Below, one piece after another: positions 19,045 through 62,719 of a DNA stretch of 64,000 bases (position 1 is the first letter of the stretch; every line of letters starts with the position of its first letter). The position numbers and the translations under genes are program-made. Where the stretch lies: positions 64,001 through 128,000 of the forward strand of contig CAWJQC010000004.1 in assembly GCA_963844965.1 (NCBI GenBank), given 5' to 3'. The notes under the pieces are model-generated. The model did no database searches and had not been told where the DNA came from. It saw nothing but the letters and a program-made list of their open reading frames with translations. Source of the DNA: an uncultured bacterium (GTDB taxonomy: Bacteria; Patescibacteriota; Minisyncoccia; UBA6257; 2-01-FULL-56-20).

Positions 19045-21149
19045 TTACCGTTTTTTGCCTTCGATAATCAACTGCGCAATGTTCTGCGGCACTGGCTCAT
19101 AATGGTCAAATTCCATCGTGAACGCTCCCCTGCCTTGCGTCATGGAACGCAACTCGGTCGCGTAGCCGAACATTTCCGCGAGCGGAACTTTGGCGTCAAT
19201 CACTTTCACGTTGGGCCGGTCGGAAATTTCCTCAATCCTGCCGCGCTTGGAGTTCAAGTTGCCGCTCACCTCGCCCAAAAATTCTATCGGGATGATAACC
19301 TGAAGCTTCATTATCGGCTCCAATATGACCGGCTTCGCGCGCTTCGCCGCTTCCTGCAGGGCGATGGAGCCAGCAATTTTGAAAGCCGCCTCCGACGAGT
19401 CAACTTCATGGAAAGAGCCGTCATAGAGCGAAACTTCAAGGTCGGTCATCGGGTAGTGGGCAACGACCCCCTTACTCAATGCTTCCACCACACCTTTTTC
19501 CACCGCCGGGATGAATTCGTTCGGAATGATCCCTCCCTGATATCGTCTATGAAAACAAATCCCTTGCCGCGCTCCAAGGACTTCACGCGCAGCCAGACAT
19601 GTCCGTATTGTCCGCGGCCGCCGGATTGCCTGATATATTTGCCTTCCGCCTCCGCTTCGCCCATAATCGTTTCTTTATAGGCAACCTGCGGCCGCCCCAC
19701 CGAACCCTCAACACCGAACTCCCGCTTCATCCTGTCAACAATAATTTCCAGGTGCAACTCGCCCATGCCAGAAATAATCGTCTCGCCAGTTTCCAGGTCG
19801 CCCGCCACGCGGAAAGTCGGGTCTTCTTCCGCCAAGCGGTGCAGGGCAATGCTCATTTTTTCCTGGTCGGCTTTCGTCTTCGGCTCAATGCGAATGCCGA
19901 TCACCGGCTCGGGGAATATGATCTTCTCAAGCACTATCGGCGCGTCGGGACTGCAAAGCGTGTCGCCGGTCGTCGTATTCTTCAAACCGACGATCGCCGC
20001 GATATCTCCGGCATGCACTTCCTCCATTTCTTCGCGGTGGTTGGCGTGCATCCGCACCACGCGGCCGACACGTTCCTGCTGGTCCTTCTTGGAATTCAAA
20101 ACGTACGTGCCGCGCTTCAAAACGCCGGAATAATTCCGGAAATAGGTTAAAGTGCCGACGTACGGGTCTGTCGCAACCTTGAAAGCCAGCGCCGAGAACG
20201 GCTCTTCGTCCTTGGGGTGCCGCACGATATCGGCGCCGCTCTTCGGGTCAATGCCCTTAACCGGAGGAAGGTCCGTCGGCGCGGGCAAATATTCCACAAC
20301 CGAGTCAAGCATAAATTGCACGCCTTTGTTTTTCAGGGCCGAACCGCAAAGCACCGGCACAATTTTGTTGGCAATAACGGCTTTGCGCAAAACGCGGCGC
20401 AAATCTTCAATGTCAAGCTCAGTACCATCCAAATACTTGGTCATCAAGGCATCGTCATTGTCCACAATGCGTTCCACAAGTTCATGCCGCGCCTTCTTCA
20501 CGTGCACTTTCATATTTTCCGGCATCGGAATTTCTGTAATCTTTTCGCCATGTTCACCCTCCGAGCCGTACGCCTTTTCGGTTAAGAGGTCTATCATTCC
20601 CACGAATTCACCCTCAAGGCCGATGTTCAACTGCAAAGGCAGTGCGTTCGGCGTGAGCCGTTCTTTGATTGACTGCAAACTTTTTTCAAAGCTCGCACCC
20701 AAGCGGTCAAGTTTGTTAATAAAGCAAATCCGCGGCACGTGGTACTCATCGGCATAGCGCCAGTTCGTTTCCGACTGCGGCTCAACACCTGCGACGCCAT
20801 CAAAGACGACAACCGCGCCGTCCAAAACGCGGAGCGAACGCTTCACCTCCACCGTAAAGTCAATGTGCCCCGGCGTGTCAATCAAATTTATCATATGCTC
20901 AAATTTTTTGTCGCCCTTGCGGTAAGTCGGAATCCAGAACGCCGTCGTTGCGGCGGAAGTAATCGTAATTCCCCTCTCACGTTCCTGCTCCATCCAATCC
21001 ATCACCGTGTCGCCCGTGTGCACCTCGCCGATTTTGTGACTGACGCCCGTATAAAAAAGCACCCGTTCGCTCACGGTGGTTTTGCCGGCATCTATATGGG
21101 CGATGATGCCGATGTTACGGACCTTCTCGACAGGATACATTCTAGGCAT
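19045..21149 (-). CDS. fusA: Elongation factor G, split by a 1-nt deletion in a G-run near 19531-19540
   Basis: ORF-track pieces 19476..21149 (AHIDAGKTT...[10 protein letters not shown]) and 19045..19503 ([18 protein letters not shown]...) are contiguous EF-G. The correct join is ...[20 protein letters not shown]... Confidence 0.9.
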
Positions 21150-21303
21150 TGAATTTGAATAAACTTATTTTAATTCTCGCGCATATTGATGCGGGAAAGG
21201 GGTCGGGAAAACGGGAGTTTTCCCGTATAGGAAAAAGGCCGGAGGCCGAGTTAAAAACCGAGAGGTTTTTAAGGAGCGGGTTGCTGTATAGCGACTCGCG
21301 ACC

Positions 21304-21363
21304 GTCTATATGCGCGATTATTCCTATATTTCTTACTTTTTCTACTGGATATTGTCGCGGCAT
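21304..21363 (-). pseudogene. Displaced duplicate of the fusA 5' end (codons 1-20, [20 protein letters not shown]), codon-divergent from the functional copy
   Basis: ORF 21142..21363 begins with a 20-aa peptide identical (1 substitution) to the fusA N-terminus but with different synonymous codons. It then reads through a 150-bp hairpin-containing insert. Confidence 0.6.
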
Positions 21364-23902: not shown

Positions 23903-23924
23903 CAAAGGTGGGAGGGTGAAGATA

Positions 23925-23990: not shown

Positions 23991-24072
23991 ATCGCGGCAT
24001 CGTGGGGGCCGACGCTCTAGCGCGACCCCGAGAGGCCTACCGATACGGAATATCGTCCTCCTTATTTCTCTA

Positions 24073-31231: not shown

Positions 31232-33913
31232 ATGAGTGGGATAAAAATAAATCTTTCTCTCAGCGAAATCCCAGGCATCGGCCCGCGTTTTCTGGAACGG
31301 CTGGGAAAACTCGGCATAAAAACCGTCCGTGATCTCATTTATCATTTTCCGGCCCGCTACGAGGATTTCTCCCAGATATACAAAATTTCCGACGTTGAGC
31401 CGGGGGAACAGGTAACAATACGTGGCGTTGTTGAAGACACCAAACTGCGGCGGACTTGGAGAAAACACATGACAATCGCCGAAGCCCTGATCCGCGACGA
31501 TTCCGGAACGATACGCGCCATCTGGTTCAACCAACCATATGTTTTGAACACTCTGCGGGTCGGGCGCACGGCGAATTTCGCAGGCAAAATATCCATATCG
31601 GACGAGGACGAAATTTATTTGAGCCACCCGGCTTATGAAATCGTCGGCAGTCGGGAGTCGGGAACGGAGAAGCAAGAAACAAAACATACAGCGCGGCTCG
31701 TCCCCATTTATCCCGAAACGCGCGGCCTCACATCCAAGGGGTTGAGATATCTGATCCAGCCAATTCTGAAAAACAGCGAACAGCTGGAGGAATGGCTGCC
31801 GCCGGAAGTTCTGCGCGAAAATAATTTTCCCGAAATAAACCTTGCGCTCAGATCCATACACTTCCCCGAAAAAACCGAGGATGCTCTTGTCGCGAAAAAA
31901 CGCTTCACTTTTGAAAACCTGTTCCTGCTGCAACTCGCCAATCTTGAACAAAAATTGAAACTCGCGCGCGAAAAAGCGCCAGTGATCAAAACCGACATAG
32001 AACACCTGAAAAAAATGATCTCGGAACTGCCATACGAACTCACGTTTTCGCAAAAGAAATCATTGTGGGAAATCATCCAGGACCTCGCCAAAAAACAGCC
32101 GATGAACCGCCTGCTCCAGGGCGACGTGGGCTCCGGCAAGACGGTTGTCGCGGCGCTCGCCGCGGTAATTACCGCGGAAAACGGGCTGCAGACCGCGTTT
32201 ATGGCGCCAACCGAGGTTCTCGCGAGACAGCATTTTGAAACATTGAAAAAATTATTCGCCGGAATTCCCTCGATCCATCAACCCGTAGTTGGGCTTCTCA
32301 CGTCAAGCGAAGCAAAAATCCTCTACGCGACAGACCTTGAATCAAAAATCAAAAAACCGGAGTTGCAGGAAAAAATAAAAAACGGCGAGGTAAAAATAGC
32401 CATCGGCACGCACGCTTTGATACAAAAAGACGTGGCGTTCGGCAATCTTGCCTTTATCATCATTGACGAACAGCATAGATTCGGCGTCTCACAACGAGCT
32501 GCGCTCGTTCGCGGACAGACGCAGAATGATAATACGCGGACAGACGCTGAACAACTACTATACGAAAAAACGACGTTTGAGATAAGAAAAAGTCTGTTTG
32601 AGGTGAGAAAACAACTGGGCCTTGGTCATAAAGAAGTGGTGTATCAGAAAGCATTGGAGGAGGAGTTCAAGAAATCCGGTGTAATATTTGAGAAAGAAAA
32701 GAAAATTCCTGTCGTTTATAACAAGAAAAAGATTGGCGTTTATCAACCGGATTTTGTCATAGATAATGAAGTAATTTTGGAACTTAAGGCTCTTCCCTTT
32801 ATCGGCGGCATCGAAAAAAAACAGCTGTGGAATTATTTGAGGGGTTCGGATTACAAACTCGCGCTTATGGCAAACTTTGGACCGGAAAGATTATCCATAG
32901 AGCGGGTAGTATACGATATTGCGCGGAGTCGGCGGCTGTCAGCGTCCGGTCAGCAACTGTCCGCGCCTATCCCCCACCTCCTCTCAATGTCCGCCACGCC
33001 AATCCCACGCACGCTCATGCTCACCGTCTTCGGCGATTTGGATATATCGCTCATCACCGAACTTCCCGCCGGCAGAAAAAATATCGTAACAAAAATAATC
33101 CCCCCACGGGGCAGGAGCGAAGCCTATGAATTCATCCGCGGCGAAGTGAGGGCCAGCCGGCAGGTTTTTGTCATCTGCCCCCGCATTGACAAACCGCAGA
33201 CAGGCGCAGACCACACGCAGACAAACGCAGACAAGACACAGACAGACGCAGACAATTTTCAGCGGCTGTCTGCGTCAAGTCAGCGACTGTCCGCGTTAAG
33301 TCCACGTAAGTCCGCGTTAGTGTGGGAAGTAAGATCCGTGAAAGAAGAATTTGAAAAATTATCCAAGAAAATTTTTCCGGATTTGCGCGTCGCCATGCTC
33401 CACGGCCAGCTCAAGCCAAAAGAAAAAGCGGGTATCATGAAGGACTTCCGCAACTACAAAATAGATATTCTCGTTTCAACTTCCGTCGTGGAAGTTGGCG
33501 TGGACGTGCCGAACGCAACAATAATGATGATTGAAGGCGCCGATCGCTTCGGGCTGGCTCAGATCTACCAATTCCGCGGACGCGTGGGGCGCGGCGAACA
33601 CCAATCCTATTGCTTCCTGTTCACGGATTCGTCCGCCAAAACTACGCGCGAGCGGCTGCAGGCCGTCCTTGAAGCCAAGAACGGCTTTGAGCTCGCCGAG
33701 AAGGACCTGAAGATCCGCGGTCCCGGCGAATTCCTCGGCACGGCGCAGACCGGCTTTCCCGACACGGCGATGAGCGGCCTCATGAACCCGGAGCTCGTGA
33801 AAGCAAGCCGCGAAGCGGCGGCAAAAATCGTCCAAAAAGATCCGCTTTTCAAAAATTATCCGCTCCTGAAAACCAAATTAAACGAGTTCCGGAAGGAAAT
33901 CCACTTGGAGTAG
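31232..33913 (+). CDS. recG: ATP-dependent DNA helicase RecG carrying an inserted GxxExxY/PD-(D/E)XK nuclease-like domain (about 32500-32990) and a second short repeat-encoded insert (33180-33310)
   Basis: Wedge/OB N-terminus; helicase motifs GDVGSGKT, DEQHRFG, QxxGRxGR (YQFRGRVGRGEHQSY). Internal segment GHKEVVYQKALEEEF...YQPDFVIDNEVILELKA matches GxxExxY plus D-x(n)-ExK. Confidence 0.85.
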   Translation: MSGIKINLSLSEIPGIGPRFLERLGKLGIKTVRDLIYHFPARYEDFSQIYKISDVEPGEQVTIRGVVEDTKLRRTWRKHMTIAEALIRDDSGTIRAIWFNQPYVLNTLRVGRTANFAGKISISDEDEIYLSHPAYEIVGSRESGTEKQETKHTARLVPIYPETRGLTSKGLRYLIQPILKNSEQLEEWLPPEVLRENNFPEINLALRSIHFPEKTEDALVAKKRFTFENLFLLQLANLEQKLKLAREKAPVIKTDIEHLKKMISELPYELTFSQKKSLWEIIQDLAKKQPMNRLLQGDVGSGKTVVAALAAVITAENGLQTAFMAPTEVLARQHFETLKKLFAGIPSIHQPVVGLLTSSEAKILYATDLESKIKKPELQEKIKNGEVKIAIGTHALIQKDVAFGNLAFIIIDEQHRFGVSQRAALVRGQTQNDNTRTDAEQLLYEKTTFEIRKSLFEVRKQLGLGHKEVVYQKALEEEFKKSGVIFEKEKKIPVVYNKKKIGVYQPDFVIDNEVILELKALPFIGGIEKKQLWNYLRGSDYKLALMANFGPERLSIERVVYDIARSRRLSASGQQLSAPIPHLLSMSATPIPRTLMLTVFGDLDISLITELPAGRKNIVTKIIPPRGRSEAYEFIRGEVRASRQVFVICPRIDKPQTGADHTQTNADKTQTDADNFQRLSASSQRLSALSPRKSALVWEVRSVKEEFEKLSKKIFPDLRVAMLHGQLKPKEKAGIMKDFRNYKIDILVSTSVVEVGVDVPNATIMMIEGADRFGLAQIYQFRGRVGRGEHQSYCFLFTDSSAKTTRERLQAVLEAKNGFELAEKDLKIRGPGEFLGTAQTGFPDTAMSGLMNPELVKASREAAAKIVQKDPLFKNYPLLKTKLNEFRKEIHLE

Positions 33914-34179: not shown

Positions 34180-36625
34180 CTACTGCTCCATATGACCGAC
34201 AAGGGTGCATGTATAAAAGTTACCAGTGCATTGGGATGAATTAGTAACATCCCAACAAGTTGAATAAGTCTCCAGCGCGCCACTACAAGGAGTGGTATTA
34301 GCGCATGAACTGTTGTAGTAACGAATATAAGTCATATACTGCGGGCAGAAGTAAATCGGCGTCCCGCCTGTAACTTTAAGAGTGCCGGGAATGATGACGT
34401 TGCCGTTTGCTAGAACCTGTATAGCTGCTCCGGTTGTAGTAGCTGTACCAGTATTCGGCATACTGCCGCCAATACCGACGTTGCCGGCATAGTTGATGAC
34501 TAATTTATTTGATTCTGCCGCACTAGGATAATTTCCCACCATAAGCATGGCGCCCTGATTAACATCGCCCACATCGAGCAGCACCGCATCCGCATTGGTC
34601 GTAGCCGCGGTGCCGTAGAACGTGCCGGTATTGGTATCCCTGTTCTGCTCGAACTGGGTGCCGTAATCACCGGTGTTATACAAGAACGAATAGGTGGGAT
34701 TACTAAAATCGCTGTACATCTCAAGGCCGGGGCCGGTACCGGCAGTATTTGAATATGCATAAAATTGATAGTTGGCGGGCGCCGCCGCTCCCACCCCGAT
34801 TCCGGAGGTGAATAAACCTCCTCCAGTTACCGTCAGTTTCTGGGTCGGCGCCGTATTCCCGATGCCGACGTTGCCGGAGGAATTCCAAATACCGGTGCCA
34901 GGCATCGTAACGTTGCCAGTAAAGGTCGGGCTCGCTAAAAGCGCCGCTCCGGTAACCTGCGCTACCCCGTAGTCACCAGATGCCGCCACCACGGCTCCGG
35001 TTCCGCCAAATACCGAGGTGACGCCGCCGCTCGGCCAAGCCGTGATGCAATTCGCCCCGGAGATGCAATATTGAGTGGCGTTTGCGGTAACCGTTGACGT
35101 ACAGAGCGTACCCTCCGCCTGAGTTTGTGAAATACCCACCGTAGCCGCCGGAGTTGGTGGCTAATCCATAAACTCCTACGCCGTTACCTGCCGCTGACTG
35201 TCCGGCAACCCCTACCCAGTAAGAAGCGCCGACCTGTCCGCCGAGAATCCCATTCGTTGTGGCGTTGCTATTATTTCCCGTTACCGAGCCGACCCATGAT
35301 GAATTGACGGCGCTCGTGAAACTGCCTACGCCAGCAACAACCAACGGATATGCCGGCGTCGTCGTCCCGATGCCGACGTTGCCGTTCGTGATGGAGAAAT
35401 ATGGACCACCCCCCATCCCAGTGCCAAGCGCCAAATTGAGGCCATAAGATTGTGACGTCAAATCAGCGTATGTAAATGCTCCGTTGCTGGTGGTGAACTT
35501 TATCCAATCTACGTTTGACCCGTTTGTATTGTCTAGCCGTAAGGTAGACGTACTTCCACTCTGAATATCAAGTTTTGCGACCGGCGCCGTGTTCCCGATG
35601 CCGACGTTGCCGTTGTTATTTATAAACAAGGCGGGTGACGCGCCGGATGAGTCAGAACCCTGAGTCAAAAAGGCCATTGGAGAACCGTTACTGCCGATCC
35701 GGGCCCAGTTCGCAACTGCTGCCGGTCCAAGCTGTAGCAAGGCATCGGTACCGTTAGATGTCAAGTCAAACTTGGCGAATTTTGACCCGTTCACGACATG
35801 CAACGTCGTTGCCGGCGACGCCGTCCCGATGCCGACGTTGCCGCCATATGCAAGCGTCATTATTTGGGAGTACCAACTGCTGGGGTTCTGATACCCAATC
35901 GTCAAGACCGAATTATCTGACGCTGGTGCAAAAACATACCCATTATTACTGCCAGCCATATCGCGGAGCTTGAAGGCTCCAAAGACATCAAGTGTATTTT
36001 GTGGTGACGGCGTCCCGATGCCGACCGAGCCCGAGAAATACCCGCCGCCGTAGACGGAGAGGGCCTGCGGCAAGTTGCTGGCGGAGGATGTGGTAACGCC
36101 CAGAGCGGAAGAAACAAACACACTGTGGGGGAACCCGTAGGGAACGCCGGAATCGGCCTCTAGAGAATTGAACACCGCGGGCGTGACATAGCCGGCGTTG
36201 ACGGTCCCGTTAAAATTGCCGTGGATCGTGCCGTTCACGTCAAGCTGGTAGCCAGGCGACGCCGTCCCGATGCCGACAGAACCGTCATTGCGCACGACAA
36301 GTATGGGCGACGAATTCGGATAAAGGATCTTCAATGTGTAATTCGCGGCATCAGCGGACGAAGAAGCAACGATGAGGAGTTTGGTTTCCGGCAGAGGCGT
36401 GGGCGTACCAACGCCCAGATTCCCAGCCGCATTAGTGCTTACCGCTCCCGAACCGAAACCGGGGGTGGGAGGAGGAGAGGCAAACGCGTAGTAGGTAGTA
36501 GGTAGTAGGTAGTAGGTAGTAGCGAGAATGACGAAAAACAAAACGTGCGGCGCAAAACTCGGACGCACACCGTAAAACTTGCGGCGGAGCTTTTGCTGTT
36601 TTTGGAACAAATCTGCGTCCATCAT
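34180..36625 (-). CDS. Giant Sec-secreted fibre-like surface protein 1 (about 815 aa; frameshift near 35100-35160 joins ORF-track pieces 34973..36625 and 34180..35139)
   Basis: Signal peptide MMDADLFQKQQKLRRKFYG...VLFFVILATTYYLLPTTYYAFA; dozens of GNVGIGT(A/T)xP repeats; Cys-rich C-terminal domain; N-terminus and a ~150-aa internal block identical to the 40555..43680 paralog. Confidence 0.7.
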
Positions 36626-43500: not shown

Positions 43501-43680
43501 TCCCGAACCGTAACCGGGAGTGGGAGGAGGAGAAGCAAACGCATAGTAGGTAGTAGGTAGTAGGTAGTAGGTAGTAGCGAGAATGACGAAAAACAAAACG
43601 CGCGGCGCAAAACTCGGACACGCACCGTAAAACTTGCGGCGGAGCTTTTGCTGTTTTTGGAACAAACCTGCGTCCATCAT
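40555..43680 (-). CDS. Giant Sec-secreted fibre-like surface protein 2 (1041 aa) with peptidase-S74-type C-terminal intramolecular chaperone domain
   Basis: Same signal peptide as protein 1; GNVGIGT repeats; in-frame tandem 237-bp (79-aa) duplication at about 41237-41710; C-terminus NSSDERLKKNIVPLSG...GLDYTGLIAPMIESIKEQQQEISALQAQNAALQEKV, the S74 autoproteolysis motif SDxRLK plus a coiled coil. Confidence 0.75.
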   Translation of the reverse strand: MMDAGLFQKQQKLRRKFYGACPSFAPRVLFFVILATTYYLLPTTYYAFASPPPTPGYGSGAISVNAAGNLGIGTSTPSANVRLLIVASSTDSSNFALQVVQPGSAVPLLVVRNDGTVGIGTSNLTNAGSVNLASGMSIYGSVSGLVSAGNISPGVFNSLQLDSGVPYGFPHSVFITSGLGITTTTASNLPQALSVYGGGYFSGNVGIGTANPTQQLQLTSNMLLPMAAGNVNGNLFFGGDTSVGVNGMRLFSSDSSGGGFIDVKASAATNGLIFRVDTSAGAAERMRITAGGNVGIGTTGPASLFSVGASSQFQVDNNGNIAKINSITYSWPAAQGGASTVLTNNGAGTLSWSAAGGSVTSVSDSGVGTLTISPTAGAVSAALNLGHANTWTALQTFSSGASANTLTVSGISGSIQCLHVSAAGVVSGTGSDCASSGGTVNASNVAAGYFGSNVVSTGNYLFPASVVVSSSLAVATSGSAVGPQALSVYGGGYFTGSVGIGTAAPGYKLDVEGGFLKTSYNTQSLPVSDGLGGLAVGWNYTGGNAEVDFYNVYNNPTTAFQFSEKTGASSKTDLVTILGSGNVGIGTASPATTLHVVNGSKFAKFDLTSNGTDALLQLGPAAVANWARIGSNGSPMAFLTQGSDSSGASPALFINNNGNVGIGNTAPVAKLDIQSGSTSTLRLDNTNGSNVDWIKFTTSNGAFTYADLTSQSYGLNLALGTGMGGGPYFSITNGNVGIGNTAPVAKLDIQSGSTSTLRLDKTNGSNVDWIKFTTSNGAFTYADLTSQSYGLNLALGTGMGGGPYFSITNGNVGIGTTAPASTLSVGGAGQAGAGIYGTGSMYGVYGTAGATGYGVYGYGTGNGLPAVYGYNAGTGVGVEGYSDTAGANGSAGYFGNPAGYGVFSTAAIGVYGSGSTYDFQGAHGEYTNNAGQWINSSDERLKKNIVPLSGSLAELELLTPVSFEWKDTKLMGSGEQLGLTAQNVQTVFPQLVETDASGTLGLDYTGLIAPMIESIKEQQQEISALQAQNAALQEKVDALLK

Positions 43681-43735
43681 AATAATTTACTATCTACTAC
43701 TTACTACCTACCACCTACTACCTACTACCTACTAC

Positions 43736-44200
43736 TTACTGCTTCGCAGGCGGTCCCTGGATGGTGCCGCTTGCCACTTGCGAAGGAAGCTGCTGCGAAG
43801 GAAGTTGCTGTCCCGATGACTGAAGCGAAGAAGGGTTGGCGAATGCCTGCACAAGCTGACTGTCGTTGCGCAGGCTCGTCCAGAAAATCACCTGCTTGGC
43901 GTTCAAATGGACCTCGTCAACCGGGCCCCAGAAAGCGTTCTTGAGGGCGGAGAGTCCGAGCTGTGCCTGATTCTGCTGATTGACGCTCCTCTGCAGGAAC
44001 CAGACGTTTGTCAGACGCAGGGACGGGAACCAGCTCAGTTTGCCGAAATAGATATCACCGGTCGTAAGATAGACCGCCGAATACTCGGAAGGGCCAGCCG
44101 GATTTTTGGGAGACATGAGTTTCAAGCCGAGCCACAGGCCGAAAATCAGGACGACGAGCACAATGAGAACCAGGACAGCGATTAATTTTTTGGGCAACAT
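43736..44200 (-). CDS. Membrane-anchored hypothetical protein with Gln-rich C-terminus
   Basis: N-terminal TM LIAVLVLIVLVVLIFGLWLGL; SSGQQLPSQQLPSQ tail. Confidence 0.45.
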   Translation of the reverse strand: MLPKKLIAVLVLIVLVVLIFGLWLGLKLMSPKNPAGPSEYSAVYLTTGDIYFGKLSWFPSLRLTNVWFLQRSVNQQNQAQLGLSALKNAFWGPVDEVHLNAKQVIFWTSLRNDSQLVQAFANPSSLQSSGQQLPSQQLPSQVASGTIQGPPAKQ

Positions 44201-45806: not shown

Positions 45807-46187
45807 TTATAACACTTGGGCGCCTAATGCGCTTATTGCCTTATTTATCATCCACATGATTTCATCTAAATCTTCGGCCAATTTCCTGTATGTTTCGGGG
45901 TTCAAATATTTTAATTCATAGACAATCTCTAACTGAGTTTCCAGCTCTGCGCCGGAACTATATGCGTTTCTCAAAAATTGTAATTTTTCTTTTTTGGAAC
46001 TTCTCCGAAAACCCTCGGCAATATTAGACGGCATAGAAATCGCCGCTCGCCGCATTTGACTTGTTAGACCATATAGTTCCGACGGTGGAAATTTTTCGGT
46101 AACTCCGTATATCAGAACCGCATACGATTTTGTGCGTTTCCAAATGTTCAAATCTCTGTAAGATTTAATGGCTGAATTTTCCGCCAT
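45807..46187 (-). CDS. Four-helix-bundle protein (TIGR02436-like)
   Basis: 126 aa; ...YGLTSQMRRAAISMPSNIAEGFRRSSKKEKLQFLRNAYSSGAELETQLEI..., characteristic of that family. Confidence 0.6.
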   Translation of the reverse strand: MAENSAIKSYRDLNIWKRTKSYAVLIYGVTEKFPPSELYGLTSQMRRAAISMPSNIAEGFRRSSKKEKLQFLRNAYSSGAELETQLEIVYELKYLNPETYRKLAEDLDEIMWMINKAISALGAQVL

Positions 46188-46331
46188 GTCTAAATTCTAC
46201 TATATCATACTACCTACCACCTACTACATACTACTTACCGTGTCCGACCACCTCTCGCGTTTTCGGCGTTACCCAAAAGCGTCGCTCGCCTACGCTCGCT
46301 CCCTCACAACCTCTCGGTTTTGAGTAATTTC

Positions 46332-48005
46332 CTACACGGGAAAACTCCCGTTTTCCCGACCCCTTTCCCTGATTTTGGGCGTCACCCAAAATCCCAACCG
46401 CCATTTCCCTCCCAACATCAATCTGGTCTGCGCTTCAAGACCTGGCAACGCGCCAAAGATTATGAGCGTCAGCGGTATAAAAATCCACTGAAGAAAATAA
46501 ATGAGGTAGTGCCGCGCGCGGAACCAGCGCGGGCGCGGAGGCAAGAGCAGAATACCTAAAATCGCCGAACTTGCGATGCCTATCATGGAAAGCGAGACGA
46601 TGAAACGCGCGACTTGCGGCAGACTGTAAGAAAGGAGCGTGTAGTTGAAACGCCTGCCGCCGATGAACACCGGCAGCCACCCCAACGCGAAGATCATGAG
46701 GGAATTCGTCGCCCAAGAATGGAAACCTTCAAGGATATTGAAGGACCAATACCATTTTTTTCTTTTCGGAATTTCCGGGTCGCGCCGGAAGCCGTCCAGA
46801 AGATACGGAATATTTTCCGCGCCCCATCCCCAGCGCCGCTGTTGCCTGTAGATATTTTTCATCGTGGCCCAGAAAGTCGGCGCCGCGGGCGCGTCCATGG
46901 AAACCGGGTAAAGAAGGGGCTCAACGCGAAAATCGCCGTGATAGTGGAGATAGCACTGCCAAAAAATCCTTGAGTCCTCGGAGACAACGTCCTTATGCCA
47001 AAAACCGACGTCAATCAGCGTTTTCAGGGGAATTGACTGCGAAGAAAAAGAGGTCAGACGTTCCGGGCGCGACTGCTGCATCATCTGCCAGAAGGTTGAC
47101 GAAAAAGAAACGACGCGCGCCAAAGCCGGCGTCTCGTAAACGTTGTTCATGAAAAGCGGCACCGGCTGGTAAATCGCACGCTCGCGATCCTCCGAAGACA
47201 AAAAAACGTAGGCAAGCCGCCCGAAATATTCCGGGAAAACCTGCGTGTCAATGTCAAAAACCGACACTAAGATATTTTCATATCTTAACGCGGACTTACG
47301 CGGACTTAACGCGGAACTACGCGGAAAAACTTCTGCATTAGTCTGCACTTGCCCGCCTAAATTTCCTTCGGAAACTTTGGCGGGTAAATCTGCGTTAGTC
47401 TGCGCATTGACCAATGGGTCAATTATTAATTCTTTGGCGTGTGCCGCCGCCCACGCCTCATTGGAACCTTTGCCGGGAATTTCACCGGCTAAATTCCGCG
47501 GATGGACAGTGACAAGAAACCTGAAAAATTTATCGGCGAATTCTTTTTTTATTTTTTCGGCGACCGCTCTGGCGTCTTCCCCACCCGCTTCCTCCGTCGC
47601 CAGCACGACCAAAAGCTTATCCAGCGGATAATTCACGCGAACCAAGCTCTCAAAACTTCCGCGAACCACTTCATAGGGCTCTTTGTACATCGGAAGAATA
47701 ATAAGGTGATACACTTCCGACCATGACAATGACTTATGACGATGACCGCTCAAATTATTGTTATCGTTATTGTCATTTGTCATAGTCCGCAATTTTTCCA
47801 GCCAATCCACTCTCAGGTTTTTCCTCATCGCCGAAAAAGTTGAGCGCAAGTGCAGAGAGAGATAAATCGTTTTCAGGAGCCAGTAGATGTCAAAGAGTAT
47901 GATAAAAACCGCGACGGCGGCGGGCAGCTTCCACGACAGAAAGACCATCAAAAATAAAGTGAGCCAGGCAAGACCTCCGGGAAGAATTTCAAAAAAACGG
48001 TGCAT
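46332..48005 (-). CDS. Membrane glycosyltransferase family 2 (processive-type, QxxRW motif) with an in-frame repeat-element insert at about 47270-47420
   Basis: N-terminal TMs; LVVLATEEAGGED, FDIDTQ (DxD-like), QQRRWGWG, C-terminal TMs. The insert encodes QTNADLPAKVSEGNLGGQVQTNAEVFPRSSALSPRKSAL. Confidence 0.65.
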   Translation of the reverse strand: MHRFFEILPGGLAWLTLFLMVFLSWKLPAAVAVFIILFDIYWLLKTIYLSLHLRSTFSAMRKNLRVDWLEKLRTMTNDNNDNNNLSGHRHKSLSWSEVYHLIILPMYKEPYEVVRGSFESLVRVNYPLDKLLVVLATEEAGGEDARAVAEKIKKEFADKFFRFLVTVHPRNLAGEIPGKGSNEAWAAAHAKELIIDPLVNAQTNADLPAKVSEGNLGGQVQTNAEVFPRSSALSPRKSALRYENILVSVFDIDTQVFPEYFGRLAYVFLSSEDRERAIYQPVPLFMNNVYETPALARVVSFSSTFWQMMQQSRPERLTSFSSQSIPLKTLIDVGFWHKDVVSEDSRIFWQCYLHYHGDFRVEPLLYPVSMDAPAAPTFWATMKNIYRQQRRWGWGAENIPYLLDGFRRDPEIPKRKKWYWSFNILEGFHSWATNSLMIFALGWLPVFIGGRRFNYTLLSYSLPQVARFIVSLSMIGIASSAILGILLLPPRPRWFRARHYLIYFLQWIFIPLTLIIFGALPGLEAQTRLMLGGKWRLGFWVTPKIRERGRENGSFPV

Positions 48006-52317: not shown

Positions 52318-53361
52318 ATGAAGATATTAGCTATAGAAACCAGCTGTGATGAAACCGGGCTTGCCATTGTTGAGGCAAGCGGTGGTTTGCGCTCACCGCG
52401 GTTCAAGGTTTTGAAAAACCTGGTTGCTTCGCAAATCAAAATCCATCGTCCTTTTGGCGGCGTCGTTCCCAATCTCGCCAAGCGAGAACATCTGAAAAAT
52501 CTGCCGATCCTTTACAAGAAAATTGAAAATTCTAAGTTGAAAATTGAAAATTGTGACCTGGTCGTGGTAACTGTCGGTCCCGGACTGGAACCAGCCCTTT
52601 GGACCGGGATAGAATTTGCGAAAAACTTACCTGCCACCTGCCACCCACCACCCACCAAACTTGTCGGCACCAGTCACTTGGAGGGACATCTCTACAGTTT
52701 TTTGCTGCCCACGAAATCCACGAGCGGCTACGCTTCGGCACTCCTGCCGAAAGCCGTTTTTCCAGCTATAGCACTCATCGTCTCGGGCGGACACACTATA
52801 CTCTTATACATGGAATCGTTCTCCAAGTGGAAGCGGCTCGGCGAAACGCGCGATGACGCCGCGGGCGAGGCGTTTGACAAGGTCGCGCGCCTTCTTGAGC
52901 TTCCTTACCCCGGCGGGCCGGAGATAGAAAAGCTCGCAGCGAGAGGAAATCCATTCGCCATCACGTTCCCGCGCCCGATGCTTGACCAGAAAAATTACGA
53001 CTTCAGTTTCTCGGGGCTCAAAACTTCCGTCCTATACTACCTGAGAGACAATCCTCGCGCGAACAAAGCCGACGTTGCCGCGGGATTTGAGCAGGCGGTC
53101 GTTGATGTTCTCGTCGCGAAAGCCAAACGTGCCGCGCAGGAATACGGCGCCGAATCCATACTCCTCTCCGGCGGCGTCGCAGCGAACAAGCACTTGCGCA
53201 GGGCGCTCGCGCGCGCGGCTGAACTCATCGGCGCCAATTTCTTCGTTCCCGATTTCAAATACAACGCGGACAACGCCGTGATGATTGCGGCCGCCGGATA
53301 TATGGCGTATTTACGTAAGAAAAAATATAAACTTGAAGCACGGGGAAATTTAGAGATATAA
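52318..53361 (+). CDS. tsaD: tRNA N6-adenosine threonylcarbamoyltransferase TsaD (Kae1/Gcp family) with a short repeat-encoded insert
   Basis: MKILAIETSCDETGLAIVE... HLEGHLYS ... VSGGHTIL ... GGVAANKHLR. Insert LPATCHPPPT is encoded by ACCTGCC/ACCCACC heptamer-like repeats at 52621-52650. Confidence 0.8.
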   Translation: MKILAIETSCDETGLAIVEASGGLRSPRFKVLKNLVASQIKIHRPFGGVVPNLAKREHLKNLPILYKKIENSKLKIENCDLVVVTVGPGLEPALWTGIEFAKNLPATCHPPPTKLVGTSHLEGHLYSFLLPTKSTSGYASALLPKAVFPAIALIVSGGHTILLYMESFSKWKRLGETRDDAAGEAFDKVARLLELPYPGGPEIEKLAARGNPFAITFPRPMLDQKNYDFSFSGLKTSVLYYLRDNPRANKADVAAGFEQAVVDVLVAKAKRAAQEYGAESILLSGGVAANKHLRRALARAAELIGANFFVPDFKYNADNAVMIAAAGYMAYLRKKKYKLEARGNLEI

Positions 53362-54306: not shown

Positions 54307-57104
54307 ATGCCCGAAGAATTTCCTACGCGCTACGACATAAAGGAAGTTGAAACGAAAATCTACGACCTATGGGAAAAGTCTGGGTTTTTCAATCCCGATG
54401 TTTGCGTTGAAAAAGGCGCGACGAAACCGGACGCCGAACCTTTTTCCATCGTCCTGCCGCCGCCGAACGTAACCGGCACCTTGCACATCGGCCACGCCTT
54501 TGAGGACGCGATCCAAGACACCGTTGTCCGCTACGAGCGCATGCGCGGCAAGCGGACGCTCTGGGTTCCCGGGACCGACCACGCCGCCATCGCCACGCAG
54601 GCGAAAGTGGAGGAACTTCTGCGCAAGGAAGGGAAAACGAAATACGACCTCGGCCGGGAGGAATTCCTGCGGCGCGTGAACGAGTTCGCCAAAAATTCTC
54701 ATGACATCATAATCCGCCAGATAAAACGGCTCGGCGCTTCGCTTGATTGGGGCCGCGAGGCATATACGCTTGATGAAAAACGAAATCTCGCCGTCCGCAC
54801 CGCCTTTAAAAAAATGTACGACCTCGGCCTCATTTACCGCGGCGATCGTATCGTGAACTGGGACCCGAAGCTACAGACCACCGTCTCCGACGACGAGGTG
54901 GAATGGATAGACGAAACGACGCCTTTCTACTATCTGAAATATGGGCCGTTCGTCATCGGCACGGCAAGACCGGAAACGAAGTTTGGCGACAAATACGTCG
55001 TCATGCATCCGGACGACGAACGCTATAAAAAATATAAACACGGCGAAAAGATAGAACTTGAATGGATAAACGGGTCGGTCACGGCAACAATTATCAAGGA
55101 TAAGGTCATTGACGTGAATTTCGGCACGGGCGTGATGACAATCACACCATGGCACGACATGACGGACTTTGACATCGCGGAAAGGCATCGCCTGGATAGG
55201 GAGCAGATAATCGACCTGCGCGGCAAACTGCTGCCCATCGCCGGCGAATTCGCCGGAACGCCTATCGCCAAGGCCCGGCCGCTCATTATTGAAAAACTAA
55301 GAACAAAGGGTCTCGTGGAAAAGATTGACGAACATTACGCCCATCGCGTCGCCACGAACAGCCGCGGCGGCGGCCTCATCGAACCGCAGATCCTCAAACA
55401 ATGGTTCGTCAAGGTAAACTCCAAGTTCCAAATCCCAATTTCCAACCTAAAAGGGATAAAAAGCGGCCAAGAGGTGACGCTCAAGGAACTTATGAAAAAA
55501 GTCGTGGAGTCGGGGCAAATAAAAATCATACCCGGACAGTTTGAAAAAATTTACTATCATTGGATAGACAACCTGCGCGACTGGTGCATCTCGCGCCAGC
55601 TTTGGTTCGGGCACAGAATTCCGGTGTGGTATTGCCTCGCCTGCGGCGAGCCGCAAGTTGAACCGAAAATAAAATCGCGATGGTTCCTGGTGCGGCACGG
55701 AGAAACAGACTGGATCAAAGAGGGGCGGCACATGGGACATAAAGAGGTTCCCATGAATGAAACCGGCAAGCAGCAAGCGATGGTAGCCGGCGAACGGCTC
55801 GCAAACGAAAAAATTGATCTGATAATTTCTTCCACCACCATGCGCTGCAAAGAAACCGCCGAAATTATCGCGAAAAAACTGGGTGTCAAAATTATTTTTG
55901 ACGAACGTCTGCGCGAGCGCGGCAGTGGCGAATGGGAAGGACTGCTGCATGCGGAAATCAGGGAAAAATACAAACCTCTGGAGCAAAAATATGGACCGAG
56001 GAGTGGAACAAGCGCGCGCGCTATGAATTCAAACCGCCGGGAGGAGAAAATTGGCTGGAACTTGAAAAGCGCGTAATTCAATCGTTCAAAGAGCACAAAC
56101 TTCGATACGCCGACAAAAATATCGCGATTGTCACCCACGCCGGTCCGATCAGGATCCTGGAAAAAAATCTTAAAAACAAATCATTTGAAGAAGTGGTGGG
56201 ATTAATACCCGAGAATGCCGAGATTGCTAAGCTTTCAATCGCAACTGCTTCCTGTAAAAAATGTGGCAGTGATACTTACGAGCAGGATCCCGATACTCTG
56301 GATACCTGGTTCTCCTCCGCTATGTGGACGTTCTCAACTCTCGGCTGGCCTGAAAAAACCTCCGACCTCAGAACCTACCATCCAACCTCTTTGATGGCGC
56401 CGGGGTATGAAATCCTTTTCTTCTGGGTGGCGCGGATGATACTCATGAGCGGCTGTCTTTTGGGAGAAATCCCCTTCCGCACGGTTTATCTCCACGGCAT
56501 TGTGCGCGACAAGCAGGGCAAGAAATTCAGCAAATCCAGCGGTCACGCGCTTGACCCCCTGGAACTAGCCGACAAATACGGAGCGGACGCCCTGCGCATG
56601 GCTTTAATTGCCGGAGCGGCGCCGGGAAACGACGTGCAATTTGACGAGAATAGGGTCAAGGGCTACAGGAATTTTTCAACCAAGATATGGAACGTAGCGC
56701 GGTTTGTTTTACTAAACAAACCGCCGCAGACAGACGCTGACAAGACGCGGACAGCCGCGGACATTGCTGGCCGACCAGAGATAAAGGAGTTTGAGGCAAT
56801 TAAATCGGAAATAACGAAACATCTTGATGAATACGAACTGCATCTCGCAAGCGAAAAGATTTACCACTACTTCTGGCACACTTTCGCCGACAAAATAATT
56901 GAACAGGAAAAAGCCAACCTGCGGACAGCCGCCGACAAGACGCAGACAGACGCAGACATTGCGAGACGGGCAGAATCCTATGCCCTACTGGGATACATTC
57001 TCGTCGGTTCGCTTAAACTACTCCACCCTTTCATGCCGTTCGTAACAGAAGAGATTTATCAAAAATTTGAACTAAATAAGCTTCTCTTGACCGAAAAATG
57101 GTAA
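54307..57104 (+). CDS. valS: Valyl-tRNA synthetase with an inserted histidine-phosphatase (PGAM-like) domain; 1-nt deletion in an A6 run near 55987-55993 splits it into two ORF-track pieces
   Basis: PPPNVTGTLHIGHA (HIGH), GKKFSKSSGH (KMSKS), VLDTWFSS. Between WYCLACGE and CKKCGSD lies a ~190-aa block: FLVRHGETDW...SSTTMRCKETA...GSGEWEG...AIVTHAGPIRIL, the RHG histidine-phosphatase signature. Frame repair CAAAAATATGG to CAAAAAATATGG restores ...KPLEQKIWTEEW... Confidence 0.85.
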
Positions 57105-60014: not shown

Positions 60015-60085
60015 CGGCGGTCAAAAACGGAGTATCGTATAATGGTAGTGCCTGCCGGCAGGCAGGCACATGCATGGCCCAGCAC

Positions 60086-60154
60086 TAAAATTTTCGGGCT
60101 GTAGTATAGCGGCAGTACGCACCCTTGGGGTGGGTGTAGACCGGGTTCGACTCC
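60086..60154 (+). tRNA. tRNA-Pro (anticodon GGG)
   Basis: Acceptor GGGCTGT/GCAGCCC, anticodon arm CACCC-TTGGGGT-GGGTG, T-arm CCGGG-TTCGACT-CCCGG (one nucleotide short, possibly an indel), discriminator G. Its last two nucleotides overlap the start of a 159-bp inverted repeat. Confidence 0.7.
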
Positions 60155-60311
60155 CGGCAGCCCGACATAACGGAACTTGCATCAACTTTTTCAAAATCAA
60201 CGCGCTCGCTTCGCTCGCTGTCTTTATGCACGAGGGGCAAATGGAGAAGCAAATCCGTAACTACTTTCCATTCGTCTTTCCAATCCCAAAAAATTTCCCT
60301 GTCCCGCAGGC

Positions 60312-61686: not shown

Positions 61687-61759
61687 ATCAATATTATAGC
61701 GTCATCACGCCATATAGCGCAATAGTGCCCTGCCTGATACGATATTCATAAGAATACTC

Positions 61760-61963
61760 ATGGATATAGCGGCTAAATTCGGACAGAAGATAAAGAGGTT
61801 GCGATTGAGCGGAAAGATGTCTCAAGGTGGCCTCGCCAAGAAGCTCGGCGTTGGTGCTTCCTATGTCAGCAAGATAGAGCGTGGCATACAAAACGTATCT
61901 CTTAAGGGCGTGGAGAAATTAGCCGATGCGTTGGGCGTACCACCCGACCGCCTCTTGAAATAA
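61760..61963 (+). CDS. XRE-family helix-turn-helix transcriptional regulator
   Basis: 67 aa; IKRLRLSGKMSQGGLAKKLGVGASYVSKIERGIQNVSLKGVEKLADALGV, a classic HTH_3 domain. Confidence 0.7.
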   Translation: MDIAAKFGQKIKRLRLSGKMSQGGLAKKLGVGASYVSKIERGIQNVSLKGVEKLADALGVPPDRLLK

Positions 61964-62719
61964 CTGGCCTCGTCCGAAAGTTTCGGATAGATAAAATCCG
62001 CAAGGGAAAAATCGGGACAAAGATTCTTTCTTGTCGCAATTCACTTGCGACGAACCGCCGCCTGCGGGACAGGGAAATTTTTTGGGATTGGAAAGACGAA
62101 TGGAAAGTAGTTACGGATTTGCTTCTCCATTTGCCCCTCGTGCATAAAGACAGCGAGCGAAGCGAGCGCGTTGATTTTGAAAAAGTTGATGCAAGTTCCG
62201 TTATGTCGCAGTTGCTGAACGCTGTACGAACCTATTTTATCGAAAATCCGAGGGATTAGCCACCGGATTTACCCCTTCATTCACCCCTTCATTCGGGTAT
62301 GCTCGGAATGAAGGGGTAGCAAGTCCTGATTGCCCTGAAAACGCTGGGCTTTTTGACTCTCGCCGGACAAAACCAGAAGTCCTACTTCACTCCGGTTTGC
62401 CTAGTCAATCACCCCGTCAATCACGATTGACTACCCTGACGGCCATTCCGCCCTTACGAGACCTCGCTTTTCTCAAAAATCCTGACCCCCGACAATACCC
62501 CTAAACGGGTCTGTGCTCAGCCCCTCAGCCGCTCACTGTTGTTCGGGCTTCGGGGCTTCGCGTATGGCGCGCCCAAATTCCTCCCCCAACCCCTCCTTTG
62601 GGGCGCGCCGAGGGCGGTTGCGGCAACCCTTGGAACAGGGTATGGTTGAGATATCCACGCATAGGCGATGAAGCTCGCCGCAACCGCCCTTAGGGGCTGA
62701 TAGCTTCTATCTCAAAAAG

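What the first reader, a model, noticed from the sequence alone, without database searches (positions are those of the whole stretch)
46240..46365. Second copy of the fusA-associated hairpin element, in inverted orientation, between the GT2 and four-helix-bundle genes
46318-46360 (CTACACGGGAAAACTCCCGTTTTCCCGACCCCTTTCCC, preceded by CCTCTCGGTTTTGA) is the reverse complement of 21187-21235 upstream of fusA, with one substitution in the core. The locus also carries the hairpin TTTTGGGCGTCACCCAAAA and a near-copy TTTTCGGCGTTACCCAAAAG. A structured element about 80 nt long that is dispersed and can sit in either orientation suggests a small mobile repeat or a structured-RNA gene family.
Basis: seen in the sequence. 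Interest (0 to 1): 0.5.

Follow-up and report, generated by a model that had tools for sequence, protein, structure and literature searches.

The report
Protein-less structured integrative element, Patescibacteria-wide
The repeat is one copy of a small non-coding mobile element, found across the ultra-small Patescibacteria, that inserts into conserved parts of genes such as tRNAs, EF-G and sigma-70, brings a spare copy of the gene end it displaces, and has a conserved fold closed by a stem matching its target.

Summary
46328-46369(-) matches 21193-21234(+) at 41 of 42 nt, a second block also matches, and the window has only these two copies. It is not fusA-specific.

An exact 25-mer from the core occurs in more than 119 stretches of species-representative genomes, almost all Patescibacteria. 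Rfam 15, two viral-contig scans and four literature searches found nothing.

The core is about 110 nt and folds as a four-way junction:
- P2 is invariant in these hits and covaries in diverged members.
- P3 covaries strongly.
- P4 is variable.
- P1 closes the fold and is made from target sequence.

Both window copies are insertions, because one related genome has both sites empty. Each insertion is flanked by a direct duplicate of the target. The copy joined to the gene body is foreign from the crossover onward, differing mainly at synonymous sites. The native gene end is displaced beyond the core.

Targets are tRNA or tmRNA T-loops (67 of 112 evaluable instances), the AHID codons of fusA and lepA, rpoD region 4.2, and the GFWVTPK codons of this GT2.

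The 5' strand of P1 complements the intact target better than the element's own 3' end does, so it looks like a guide. No recombinase is linked. The enzyme is unknown, and whether the fold works as RNA or ssDNA is unresolved.

The parts
46378..46391 (-). Copy 2, U: target copy TTTTGGGTGACGCC attached to the GT2 body (codons F-W-V-T-P)
   Evidence: Sequence. Aligns with the empty site GGGATTCTGGGTCACGCC of the relative L125.
46370..46379 (-). Copy 2, P1 5' strand (CCCAAAATCA).
46359..46369 (-). Copy 2, junction J1 GGGAAAGGGGU (conserved)
   Evidence: Nearly invariant columns in alignments A3 and A4.
46337..46358 (-). Copy 2, P2 hairpin CGGGAAAAC-GGGA-GUUUUCCCG
   Evidence: It covaries in diverged members.
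46325..46336 (-). Copy 2, junction J2 UGUAGGAAAUUA
   Evidence: One J2 column covaries with the last nucleotide of the P3 loop.
46303..46324 (-). Copy 2, P3 hairpin CUCAAAACC-GAGA-GGUUGUGAG
46284..46299 (-). Copy 2, P4 hairpin GCGAGC-GUAG-GCGAGC with tandem G.A
46279..46283 (-). Copy 2, 3' end of the core (GACGC)
46231..46278 (-). Copy 2, D: displaced native 3' end of GT2 (TTTTGGGTAACGCCGAAAACGCGAG..., encoding FWVTPKTREVVGHGK*). Its first bases form the P1 3' strand.
   Evidence: Matches the empty site of L125 through CCGAAAACGCGAG. GT2 homologues end ...GFWVTPKxR....
21088..21149 (+). Copy 1, U: reverse complement of fusA codons 1-21, joined to the fusA body. The part near the start codon is foreign.
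   Evidence: For nt 1-45, U is 69% identical to the empty site and D is 84%. The 40 nt upstream of U are only 35% identical to the empty site.
21150..21175 (+). Copy 1, spacer brought in with the element. It now serves as the 5' leader of fusA.
21176..21192 (+). Copy 1, P1 5' strand CTCGCGCATATTGATGC (complement of the AHID-codon target)
21193..21203 (+). Copy 1, J1 GGGAAAGGGGU
21204..21225 (+). Copy 1, P2 hairpin
21226..21250 (+). Copy 1, J2 plus an extra inserted hairpin GGCC-GGA-GGCC (21237-21247)
21251..21272 (+). Copy 1, P3 hairpin UUAAAAACC-GAGA-GGUUUUUAA
21276..21302 (+). Copy 1, P4 hairpin (21276-21299) followed by GAC
21303..21363 (+). Copy 1, D: displaced native 5' end of fusA (reverse complement of [20 protein letters not shown]). 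Its first bases form the P1 3' strand.
   Evidence: The flank upstream of this fragment's ATG is 95% identical over 40 nt to the empty site of L121. The first 17 nt of the fragment are identical to L121.

Best explanation
Both window copies belong to a Patescibacteria-wide family of small, non-coding, non-autonomous integrative elements.

Shown: each element has a conserved core of about 110 nt that folds, in the strand reading GGGAAAGG..., into a four-way junction with helices P1, P2, P3 and P4.

Shown: the element sits inside a conserved sequence of a host gene. The gene stays intact because the element carries its own copy of the segment from the insertion point to the gene end (T_e). The native end (D) is pushed to the far side of the core.

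Inferred: integration is a conservative exchange within a short stretch shared by element and target, about 5-8 nt into P1. The free form is probably a small circle or nicked circle ordered core, T_e, spacer, P1 5' strand.

Inferred: the P1 5' strand works as a guide. It is perfectly complementary to the intact target on both sides of the crossover, but pairs imperfectly with the element's own 3' end (for example a tandem G.A made by GUGAGAAU in place of GUUCGAAU).

Inferred: this lets one conserved core be retargeted to tRNA T-loops, GTPase G1 codons, rpoD region 4.2 or the GT2 GFWVTPK codons.

Unknown: the recombining enzyme is supplied in trans and has not been identified. Whether the fold acts as RNA or as single-stranded DNA is not settled.
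For: - Family size: an exact 25-mer occurs in more than 119 stretches, almost all in Patescibacteria MAGs. Diverged members are found with the model.
- Structure, P3: 4 pairs change on both sides in 129 cells, 95.6% of cells are paired, 0 of 500 shuffles reach this, and slid controls reach at most 63%.
- Structure, P2: it covaries in diverged copies, for example GGGAGGAAG/CUUCCUCCC and GGGGAGAA/UUCUCCCC.
- Structure, P1: 74% paired against 46% +/- 2% when partners are permuted. The arms differ by target class.
- Structure, P4 region: mean z of -2.4 against shuffles.
- Structure, strand: the sense strand folds more stably than the antisense in 61 of 67 cases.
- Insertion: a relative's 412-kb contig has both sites empty.
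- Insertion, fusA site: the flank next to D is 95% identical to the empty site and the flank next to U is 35%. For nt 1-45, D is 84% identical and U is 69%. For nt 46-63, U is 89% and D is 72%. This places the crossover at the AHID codons.
- Replacement ends: U and D differ mainly at third codon positions in the window, L004, L057 and L083.
- Targets: 67 of 112 evaluable copies follow a tRNA (17 identities) or tmRNA, in the same orientation, at a median of 57 nt. About 75 of 123 have a direct repeat of at least 13 nt. Other targets are rpoD in L050 and GTPases.
- Targets, GT2: the same GT2 site is occupied in three other species.
- Guide: the reverse complement of the P1 5' strand matches U better than D in 33 loci against 5. 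It matches 12 of 12 in 18 loci. For the inner 7 nt the means are 5.8 against 4.0, Wilcoxon p = 1.4e-4.
- No protein: ORF clustering over 119 loci found no gene recurring at a fixed position relative to the core and nothing recognisable as an integrase, reverse transcriptase or TnpB. Representatives were read by eye, not scanned against Pfam.
Against: - No enzyme, free form or transcript has been seen.
- G.U pairs are no commoner than A.C mismatches: P3 has 2 against 5 among about 560 cells, P1 has 45 against 37, and P4 has 19 of 440 in sense against 21 of 413 in antisense. The usual signature of an RNA-level helix is therefore missing, and the fold could act as ssDNA.
- The family was ascertained with an exact 25-mer, which overstates conservation of P2.
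- In L070, L071, L093 and L127 the downstream duplicate also carries a copy of the P1 5' strand without a core. The simple model does not predict this.
- About 45 of 112 copies have no tRNA upstream, and not all of their targets were identified.
- How a new target and its reverse complement are acquired together is unexplained.
Confidence: 0.68

Rival explanations
1. Minimal derivatives or scars of conventional integrase-driven islands. The core would be the arm region of an attP site, bound by a tyrosine integrase encoded elsewhere, and the target duplication would be the usual attL/attR identity block.
For: - Duplicated tRNA 3' ends starting in the T-loop, and replacement gene ends with synonymous differences, are the classical signature of integrase-type elements. 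Examples from my own knowledge are tRNA-integrating islands and e14 or phage 21 in icd.
- L067 has 3.3 kb of cargo between the upstream target copy and the core.
- The window itself carries two large serine recombinases next to tRNA genes.
Against: - No integrase lies next to any of 119 loci. The L067 cargo has HNH, GIY-YIG and NYN genes but no integrase.
- One conserved core serves many unrelated target sequences, which protein-only site recognition does not explain.
- P3, P4 and P1 keep their pairing while their sequences change. That is not expected of double-stranded protein-binding arms.
- The sequence next to the crossover on the element side (GTGAGAAT) differs from the target (GTTCGAAT). 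Such heterology would hinder a tyrosine recombinase.
- Serine recombinases leave only a 2-bp duplication (my own knowledge).
Confidence: 0.15
2. A family of small structured RNA genes or cis-regulatory leaders with a cellular function. The flanking duplications would be incidental.
For: - Conserved purine-rich junctions, GNRA-like loops, tandem G.A motifs, covariation, and the sense strand more stable than the antisense.
- A candidate tertiary pair between J2 and the P3 loop: C-G 43, U-A 18, A-U 2.
- Frequent position just downstream of tRNA genes.
Against: - Presence or absence differs between close relatives at two independent sites.
- Copies lie inside coding sequence, in either orientation relative to the host gene.
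- Target duplications with foreign replacement ends are a property of insertion, not of a resident gene.
- There is no common neighbouring gene and no Rfam match.
- A cellular function for the RNA in addition to mobility is not excluded.
Confidence: 0.1
3. An ordinary MITE or REP-type repeat moved by a transposase that recognises terminal inverted repeats and makes a fixed target-site duplication.
For: The element is small, non-coding and dispersed, lies in either orientation, and its core is flanked by inverted repeats (the two P1 strands) and by direct repeats.
Against: - The inverted repeats are target-specific, not element-specific.
- The direct repeats range from 13 to 98 nt and can differ at synonymous sites, so they are not made at insertion.
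- No transposase is linked.
Confidence: 0.03
4. A chance duplication within this genome.
For: None beyond there being only two copies in the window.
Against: 0 expected in shuffles, more than 119 stretches in other genomes, and covariation.
Confidence: 0

Closest known systems
Integrative elements that carry a replacement gene end (tRNA-integrating islands; e14 and phage 21 in icd). From my own knowledge.
   Same: They insert inside a conserved gene. The gene is kept intact by an element-borne copy of its terminal segment, which differs at synonymous sites. The native end is displaced. tRNA T-loops are favoured.
   Different: Those elements are kilobases long and encode their own integrase. 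Here the whole insertion is about 115-250 nt and has no gene. Its only conserved part is a folded core of about 110 nt.
Folded single-stranded recombination substrates: integron attC sites and the CTX-phage attP hairpin (XerCD). From my own knowledge.
   Same: An inverted copy of the target, a loop, then the target form a stem in which exchange takes place. After integration the stem is a hybrid of element and target sequence. Structure is conserved more than stem sequence.
   Different: In attC the loop is variable and the stem carries the conserved R and L boxes. Here the loop is the conserved part and the stem varies with the target. No intI, attI or cassette arrays were seen in the loci. 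In CTX the stem always mimics dif. Here it mimics many different targets.
Guide RNAs encoded by mobile elements: IS110 bridge or seek RNAs, IS200/IS605 omega/reRNAs. From my own knowledge.
   Same: A non-coding structured module in a mobile element contains a short stretch complementary to the insertion target. Target choice can change without changing the scaffold.
   Different: Those RNAs sit beside the recombinase or nuclease gene they serve. They have bipartite loop guides (IS110) or a guide taken directly from the flank (TnpB, IscB), and leave little or no duplication. Here no protein gene is linked, the guide is one strand of the closing stem, and long gene-end duplicates are present.
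MITEs
   Same: Small, non-autonomous, dispersed, structured.
   Different: MITEs have constant terminal inverted repeats and a fixed-length duplication of the target site. See the membership test.

Membership tests
Any Rfam 15 family | Match to a curated covariance model | tested here: not met
   No hit at either locus at gathering score. With E up to 10 on 21100-21400, only chance hits below 14 bits appear.
MITE | Terminal inverted repeats that are constant for the family | tested here: not met
   The P1 arms are GGATTCGAAC at tRNAs, GCACATAGACGC at fusA, ATGCGCTCGC at rpoD and CCCAAAA at GT2, each complementary to its own target.
MITE | Target-site duplication of fixed length made at insertion | tested here: not met
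   Direct repeats range from 13 to 98 nt. The two copies differ at third codon positions.
Integrase-type integrative element at a tRNA or protein gene | Direct repeat of the gene end at both junctions, with the gene restored | tested here: met
Integrase-type integrative element at a tRNA or protein gene | Integrase gene within the element | tested here: not met
   The inserted DNA is about 115-250 nt. ORF clustering over 119 loci finds no recombinase. L067 has cargo but no integrase.
Integron cassette / attC | Conserved R''/R' core sites (RYYYAAC / GTTRRRY) at the base of the hairpin | tested here: not met
   AAC...GTT is seen only where the target is a T-loop. Other stems begin GAC/GTC, CGC/GCG or TCA/GCT.
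Integron cassette / attC | Arrays of cassettes next to intI and attI | tested here: not met
   Copies are single or at most two in tandem (L100, L029). No intI-like ORF cluster was found.
IS110-type bridge RNA | Encoded next to a DEDD/IS110 recombinase, with two internal loops carrying bipartite guides | tested here: not met
   No linked ORF. The only part that varies with the target is the closing stem P1. The internal-loop criterion was judged by eye from the alignments.
IS200/IS605 omega/reRNA or PATE | Next to tnpB or iscB; insertion 3' of a short motif without duplication | tested here: not met
   No linked ORF. Long duplications are present.
Group I or group II intron | Catalytic core (Rfam models); precise removal from the host RNA | tested here: not met
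   No Rfam hit. The core is only about 110 nt. At fusA the element is antisense to the gene. Splicing itself was not tested. The group I introns reported in Patescibacteria tRNA genes lie in the anticodon loop (PMC13011429).
Ribosomal-operon or fusA leader (cis-regulator) | Conserved position upstream of the regulated gene in relatives | tested here: not met
   The relative L121 has fusA directly after the upstream gene with no element. Most copies are elsewhere.
tRNA / tmRNA | Recognised by ARAGORN or the Rfam tRNA and tmRNA models | tested here: not met
   The elements lie downstream of complete tRNA genes.

The most novel reading that the evidence does not exclude
The core is a self-contained, programmable integration module. 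It would be an RNA or single-stranded DNA scaffold whose closing-stem strand guides recombination into any sequence it matches. The catalyst would be a widely conserved host or trans-acting enzyme, or the fold itself. This would make it a guide-directed mobile element that encodes no protein.
Probability: 0.3. Interest if true: 0.92.

Novelty: categorically new. Interest (0 to 1): 0.8.

Why it matters
If the reading holds, the smallest known bacterial genomes carry a mobile element reduced to a folded nucleic acid of about 110 nt plus a target-matching stem. It is able to enter essential, highly conserved genes (tRNAs, tmRNA, EF-G, LepA, sigma-70) without inactivating them, and it crosses species carrying pieces of those genes.

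That would matter in three ways:
- It would be a new route of horizontal exchange within core genes.
- It would be a source of annotation artefacts: split or extended ORFs, contig breaks inside the core, and odd C-termini such as ...RERGRENGSFPV.
- It would be a candidate for a compact, retargetable insertion system, once the partner enzyme is identified.

Tried and rejected
- Rfam at gathering and at permissive thresholds gave nothing.
- Two viral-contig scans, one with the exact 25-mer and one with a degenerate pattern, gave 0 hits.
- Four literature searches, including the sequence itself, gave no description. The group I introns of Patescibacteria tRNA genes (PMC13011429) lie in the anticodon loop and are a different thing.
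- ORF clustering around 119 loci, to find a partner protein, found none. A GIY-YIG ORF appears in 8 loci only, and not at a fixed position.
- I first argued from GC3 and from 86% identity to L016 that the copy beyond the core (D) was foreign and the copy on fusA (U) native. The empty site in L121 showed the opposite, and I withdrew that argument.
- A look-up of the exact 128-aa neighbour returned only the same sequence, on a contig that breaks inside the core (L120).
- The test for RNA against DNA, by counting G.U against A.C, was inconclusive.
- MAFFT could not align the 3' half. P1 and P4 were therefore analysed in register with scripts, and the covariance model covers only J1 to P3.
- I considered a tmRNA-like or minihelix mimic and a primer-binding-site reading. 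I dropped both because the fusA, rpoD and GT2 targets do not fit.
- Promoter and terminator scans near both copies were no better than shuffles.
Full report
**1. The observation**

The sequences are as described, with coordinates about 10 nt off. 21193-21234(+) and 46328-46369(-) are 42 nt and 98% complementary. A second block, 21254-21278 with 46297-46321, is 25 nt and 88% complementary (sequences). The 34-nt core occurs twice in the window, against 0 expected. The hairpin TTTTGGGCGTCACCCAAAA is at 46373-46391 and its near copy is at 46260-46278.

An alignment of the two loci shows one 13-nt indel (an extra hairpin at 21237-21247) and different sequences in two of the hairpins. A covariance model built later finds only these two copies in the 64 kb (77.4 and 62.0 bits; the next hit is 12 bits).

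**2. Not a local oddity**

Nearly all are Patescibacteria/CPR MAGs: Parcubacteria/Paceibacteria, Jorgensen-, Morani-, Colwell-, Wolfe-, Niyogi-, Harrison-, Falkow- and Berkelbacteria, plus bins labelled Saccharibacteria. Several MAGs have hits on up to three contigs. A few bins carry other labels (Bathyarchaeia, Syntrophaceae, Bdellovibrionales); I take these as probable mis-binning, which I did not test.

Rfam 15 has no matching family at gathering or permissive thresholds. Two scans of viral contigs gave nothing. Four literature searches, one with the sequence itself, found no description.

**3. Anatomy**

Read in the orientation GGGAAAGG..., every complete copy has these parts in order:
- a 5' arm that varies between loci;
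- J1, GGGAAAGGGGUC;
- P2, CGGGAAAAC-GGGA-GUUUUCCCG;
- J2, GUGGCGGAA with minor variants;
- sometimes one or two extra hairpins;
- P3, with ..AACC-GNNN-GGUU.. at its tip;
- P4, a variable hairpin that often has GCGA...GAGC tandem G.A pairs;
- usually GAC;
- a 3' arm complementary to the 5' arm.

Minimum-free-energy folds give a four-way junction closed by P1.

Evidence for the helices:
- P3: on a 76-sequence alignment, 4 pairs change on both sides in 129 cells, 95.6% of cells are paired, 0 of 500 shuffles reach the observed values, and slid controls fall to 63% or less.
- P2: it is invariant in that set because of how the set was collected. It covaries in diverged members found with the model, for example GGGAGGAAG/CUUCCUCCC, GGGGAGAA/UUCUCCCC and GGGAAAC/GUUUCCC.
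- P1: counted in register, it is 74% paired against 46% +/- 2% when partners are permuted.
- P4 region: it folds better than shuffles, with mean z of -2.4.
- A J2 position covaries with the last nucleotide of the P3 loop (C-G 43, U-A 18, A-U 2, other 13). This is a candidate tertiary pair.

On which strand and which nucleic acid folds:
- The sense strand folds more stably than the antisense in 61 of 67 cases. The conserved single-stranded parts are purine-rich.
- G.U pairs are no commoner than A.C mismatches in any helix.
- I therefore cannot say whether the fold works as RNA or as single-stranded DNA.

**4. The flanks**

In about 75 of 123 instances, a direct repeat of at least 13 nt links the DNA 0-80 nt upstream of the core with the DNA that begins at the 3' arm.

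In 67 of 112 evaluable instances, a complete tRNA (17 amino-acid identities) or a tmRNA ends a median of 57 nt upstream, in the same orientation. In these the repeat starts at the 3' strand of the T-stem and runs to the 3' end of the tRNA.

Other repeats cover:
- the first roughly 20 codons of fusA or lepA, up to the AHID G1 motif (window copy 1, L004, L016, L057, L083, L100);
- the last 28 codons of rpoD, from region 4.2 to the stop codon (L050);
- a tRNA end plus the start of a neighbouring gene (L090);
- the GFWVTPK codons near the end of this GT2 (window copy 2).

So the general layout is: gene body, target copy U, spacer of 0-60 nt (often the terminator that follows a tRNA), P1 5' strand, core, target copy D, downstream DNA.

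**5. Both window copies are insertions**

A 412-kb metagenome contig from a relative carries the orthologues of both loci with neither element. The neighbouring 128-aa protein is 80% identical and the GT2 is 75% identical.

At fusA (for the sequence, for the numbers):
- The relative goes straight from the upstream gene to ATGCCGCGACAATATCC...ATAGATGCCGGC.
- The 40 nt upstream of the window's D fragment are 95% identical to the relative. Those upstream of U are 35% identical.
- Over fusA nt 1-45, D is 84% identical and U is 69%.
- Over nt 46-63, U is 89% identical and D is 72%.
- The gene body is 79% identical.

Hence D (21303-21363) is the displaced native 5' end. The inserted DNA runs from the crossover at the AHID codons, about 21091-21098, to about 21302. 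It comprises most of U, the 26-nt spacer, the P1 5' strand and the core.

At GT2:
- The relative reads GGGATTCTGGGTCACGCCGAAAACGCGAGGCCAATGA.
- The window reads GGGATTTTGGGTGACGCC, then CAAAATCA, the core and GACGC, then TTTTGGGTAACGCCGAAAACGCGAG....
- The GT2 ORF now runs into the core and ends ...KIRERGRENGSFPV*. The displaced end would have given ...KTREVVGHGK*, like the short tails of homologues.

**6. The replacement ends come from other lineages**

U and D differ mainly at third codon positions in the window, L004, L057 and L083. For example, [20 protein letters not shown] against [20 protein letters not shown] is encoded with only 68% nucleotide identity. Both copies have therefore evolved as coding sequence. 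The element travels between genomes carrying the gene end of an earlier host.

The same GT2 site is occupied in other species. Homologues P0005, P0010, P0011, P0033 and P0045 end in translations of the core. The DNA of three of them (L126, L127, L128) shows diverged cores at the same codons, with 15-24-nt duplications.

**7. The stem as a guide (inference)**

I compared the reverse complement of the 12 nt before J1 with the first 12 nt of U and of D:
- It matches U better in 33 loci and D better in 5. Most of those 5 look like one-base register errors.
- It matches U at 12 of 12 positions in 18 loci.
- For the inner 7 nt the means are 5.8 against 4.0, p = 1.4e-4.

In tRNA-targeting copies, D often differs from the native T-loop only by TC to GA (GTTCGAAT becomes GTGAGAAT). 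This puts a tandem A.G/G.A into P1.

The inner bases of U belong to the host side of the crossover and never become part of the element. Their perfect complementarity to the P1 5' strand, including host-specific codon choices at AHID (ATTGAC in L057 and L083, GATGC in the window), is therefore not a by-product of the element carrying a homologous T_e. It is what a target-recognition strand would show.

**8. No linked protein**

Clustering of all ORFs of at least 90 aa in 119 loci gave no family at a fixed position. Nothing recognisable as an integrase, reverse transcriptase or TnpB appeared, although cluster representatives were read by eye and not scanned against Pfam. One locus (L067) has 3.3 kb between U and the core, with HNH, GIY-YIG and NYN genes but no recombinase. 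The window has two large serine recombinases elsewhere. They are not near either copy, and that enzyme class leaves a 2-bp duplication (my own knowledge).

**9. Most likely mechanism**

Shown:
- site-specific insertion into conserved sequences;
- restoration of the gene end by an element-borne copy;
- a conserved fold abutting the crossover;
- a stem strand that matches the target.

Inferred:
- The free form is ordered core, T_e, spacer, P1 5' strand, and is probably circular. Tandem units with a 190-nt period in L100 fit integration of a circle.
- Integration is a conservative exchange 5-8 nt into P1, between the element's own junction and the target.
- A trans-acting enzyme recognises the core.
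- The P1 5' strand selects the target by pairing.

Not explained:
- how a new target and its reverse complement are acquired together;
- why L070, L071, L093 and L127 have a second P1 5' strand without a core downstream of D.

**10. Comparison with known systems**

The strategy of restoring the gene end is that of integrase-type islands. The geometry of inverted target, loop, target recalls integron attC and the CTX attP hairpin. The target-matching strand recalls the guide RNAs of IS110 and IS605 elements. The membership tests for each of these, and for MITEs, introns, leaders and Rfam families, fail on at least one defining feature. I therefore file it under none of them.

**11. Verdict**

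The finding is real and is much more than a two-copy repeat. It is a member of a large, apparently undescribed family of protein-less, structured, site-specific integrative elements in Patescibacteria. Confidence is high for 'mobile, structured, target-duplicating family'. It is moderate for the guide reading, and low for any specific chemistry.

Noticed in passing
window 60085-62208: A large serine recombinase gene (533 aa; Resolvase, Recombinase and Zn_ribbon_recom domains) overlaps tRNA-Pro at 60095-60166. It is bracketed by a perfect 159-nt inverted repeat, 60163-60321 with 62050-62208.
   Followed up: partly
window 23830-25829: A second large serine recombinase (445 aa, 24492-25829, minus strand) lies next to tRNA-Arg (23830-23903) and a tRNA fragment (23915-23967).
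   Followed up: partly
window 19045-21149: fusA is split into two overlapping ORFs (557 aa and 152 aa) that together cover all EF-G domains. This is a frameshift in domain IV. Whether it is a sequencing error or a pseudogene was not resolved.
   Followed up: partly
window 31232-33913; also L057 and GT2 homologues P0006, P0014, P0016: RecG carries an in-frame PD-(D/E)XK 'GxxExxY' domain (PF13366, aa 447-558). The same domain is inserted in a LepA (L057) and in many GT2 homologues. It looks like a second kind of selfish insert in conserved genes of these bacteria.
   Followed up: no
window 36488-36522, 43544-43577, 43694-43746, 46208-46238, 52625-52655; 33187-33254, 56717-56958: Tandem 7-nt repeats occur in intergenic DNA (TACTACC type and GCAGACA type). 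The relative L125 has GACTAAC heptamers at the position equivalent to 46208-46238.
   Followed up: no
window 45807-46187: The 'four-helix-bundle' gene downstream of copy 2 is a 23S_rRNA_IVP / Avd-like protein (PF05635, E 1.8e-36). It did not recur among the ORF clusters around the other loci.
   Followed up: partly
L070, L071, L093, L127 (downstream of D): The duplicated segment after the core also contains the spacer and a second copy of the P1 5' strand. In L070 and L127 it also contains GGGAAAA. No second core follows. The simple insertion model does not explain this.
   Followed up: partly
L029 and L081 (downstream of the first element); L062 2783-3879: There are tandem or neighbouring, much more diverged family members (25-35 bits), each again just downstream of a tRNA gene. 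The family is therefore broader than the exact 25-mer.
   Followed up: partly
L120 (Logan ERR10755942): An independent assembly of the same sequence ends inside the core. The element breaks short-read assemblies.
   Followed up: yes
L002, L007, L009, L021, L031, L043, L078, L098, L099, L116: A sub-family has a conserved upstream CTCCCTTAGGAGGGAG hairpin and an extra AAAGGC/GCCTTT hairpin before J1. It sits among other short hairpin repeats (GGCGAC...GTCGCC, GGGGTGGAT). Its target was not identified.
   Followed up: partly
window 62655-62716: A fluoride riboswitch (Rfam RF01734, 47.8 bits).
   Followed up: no
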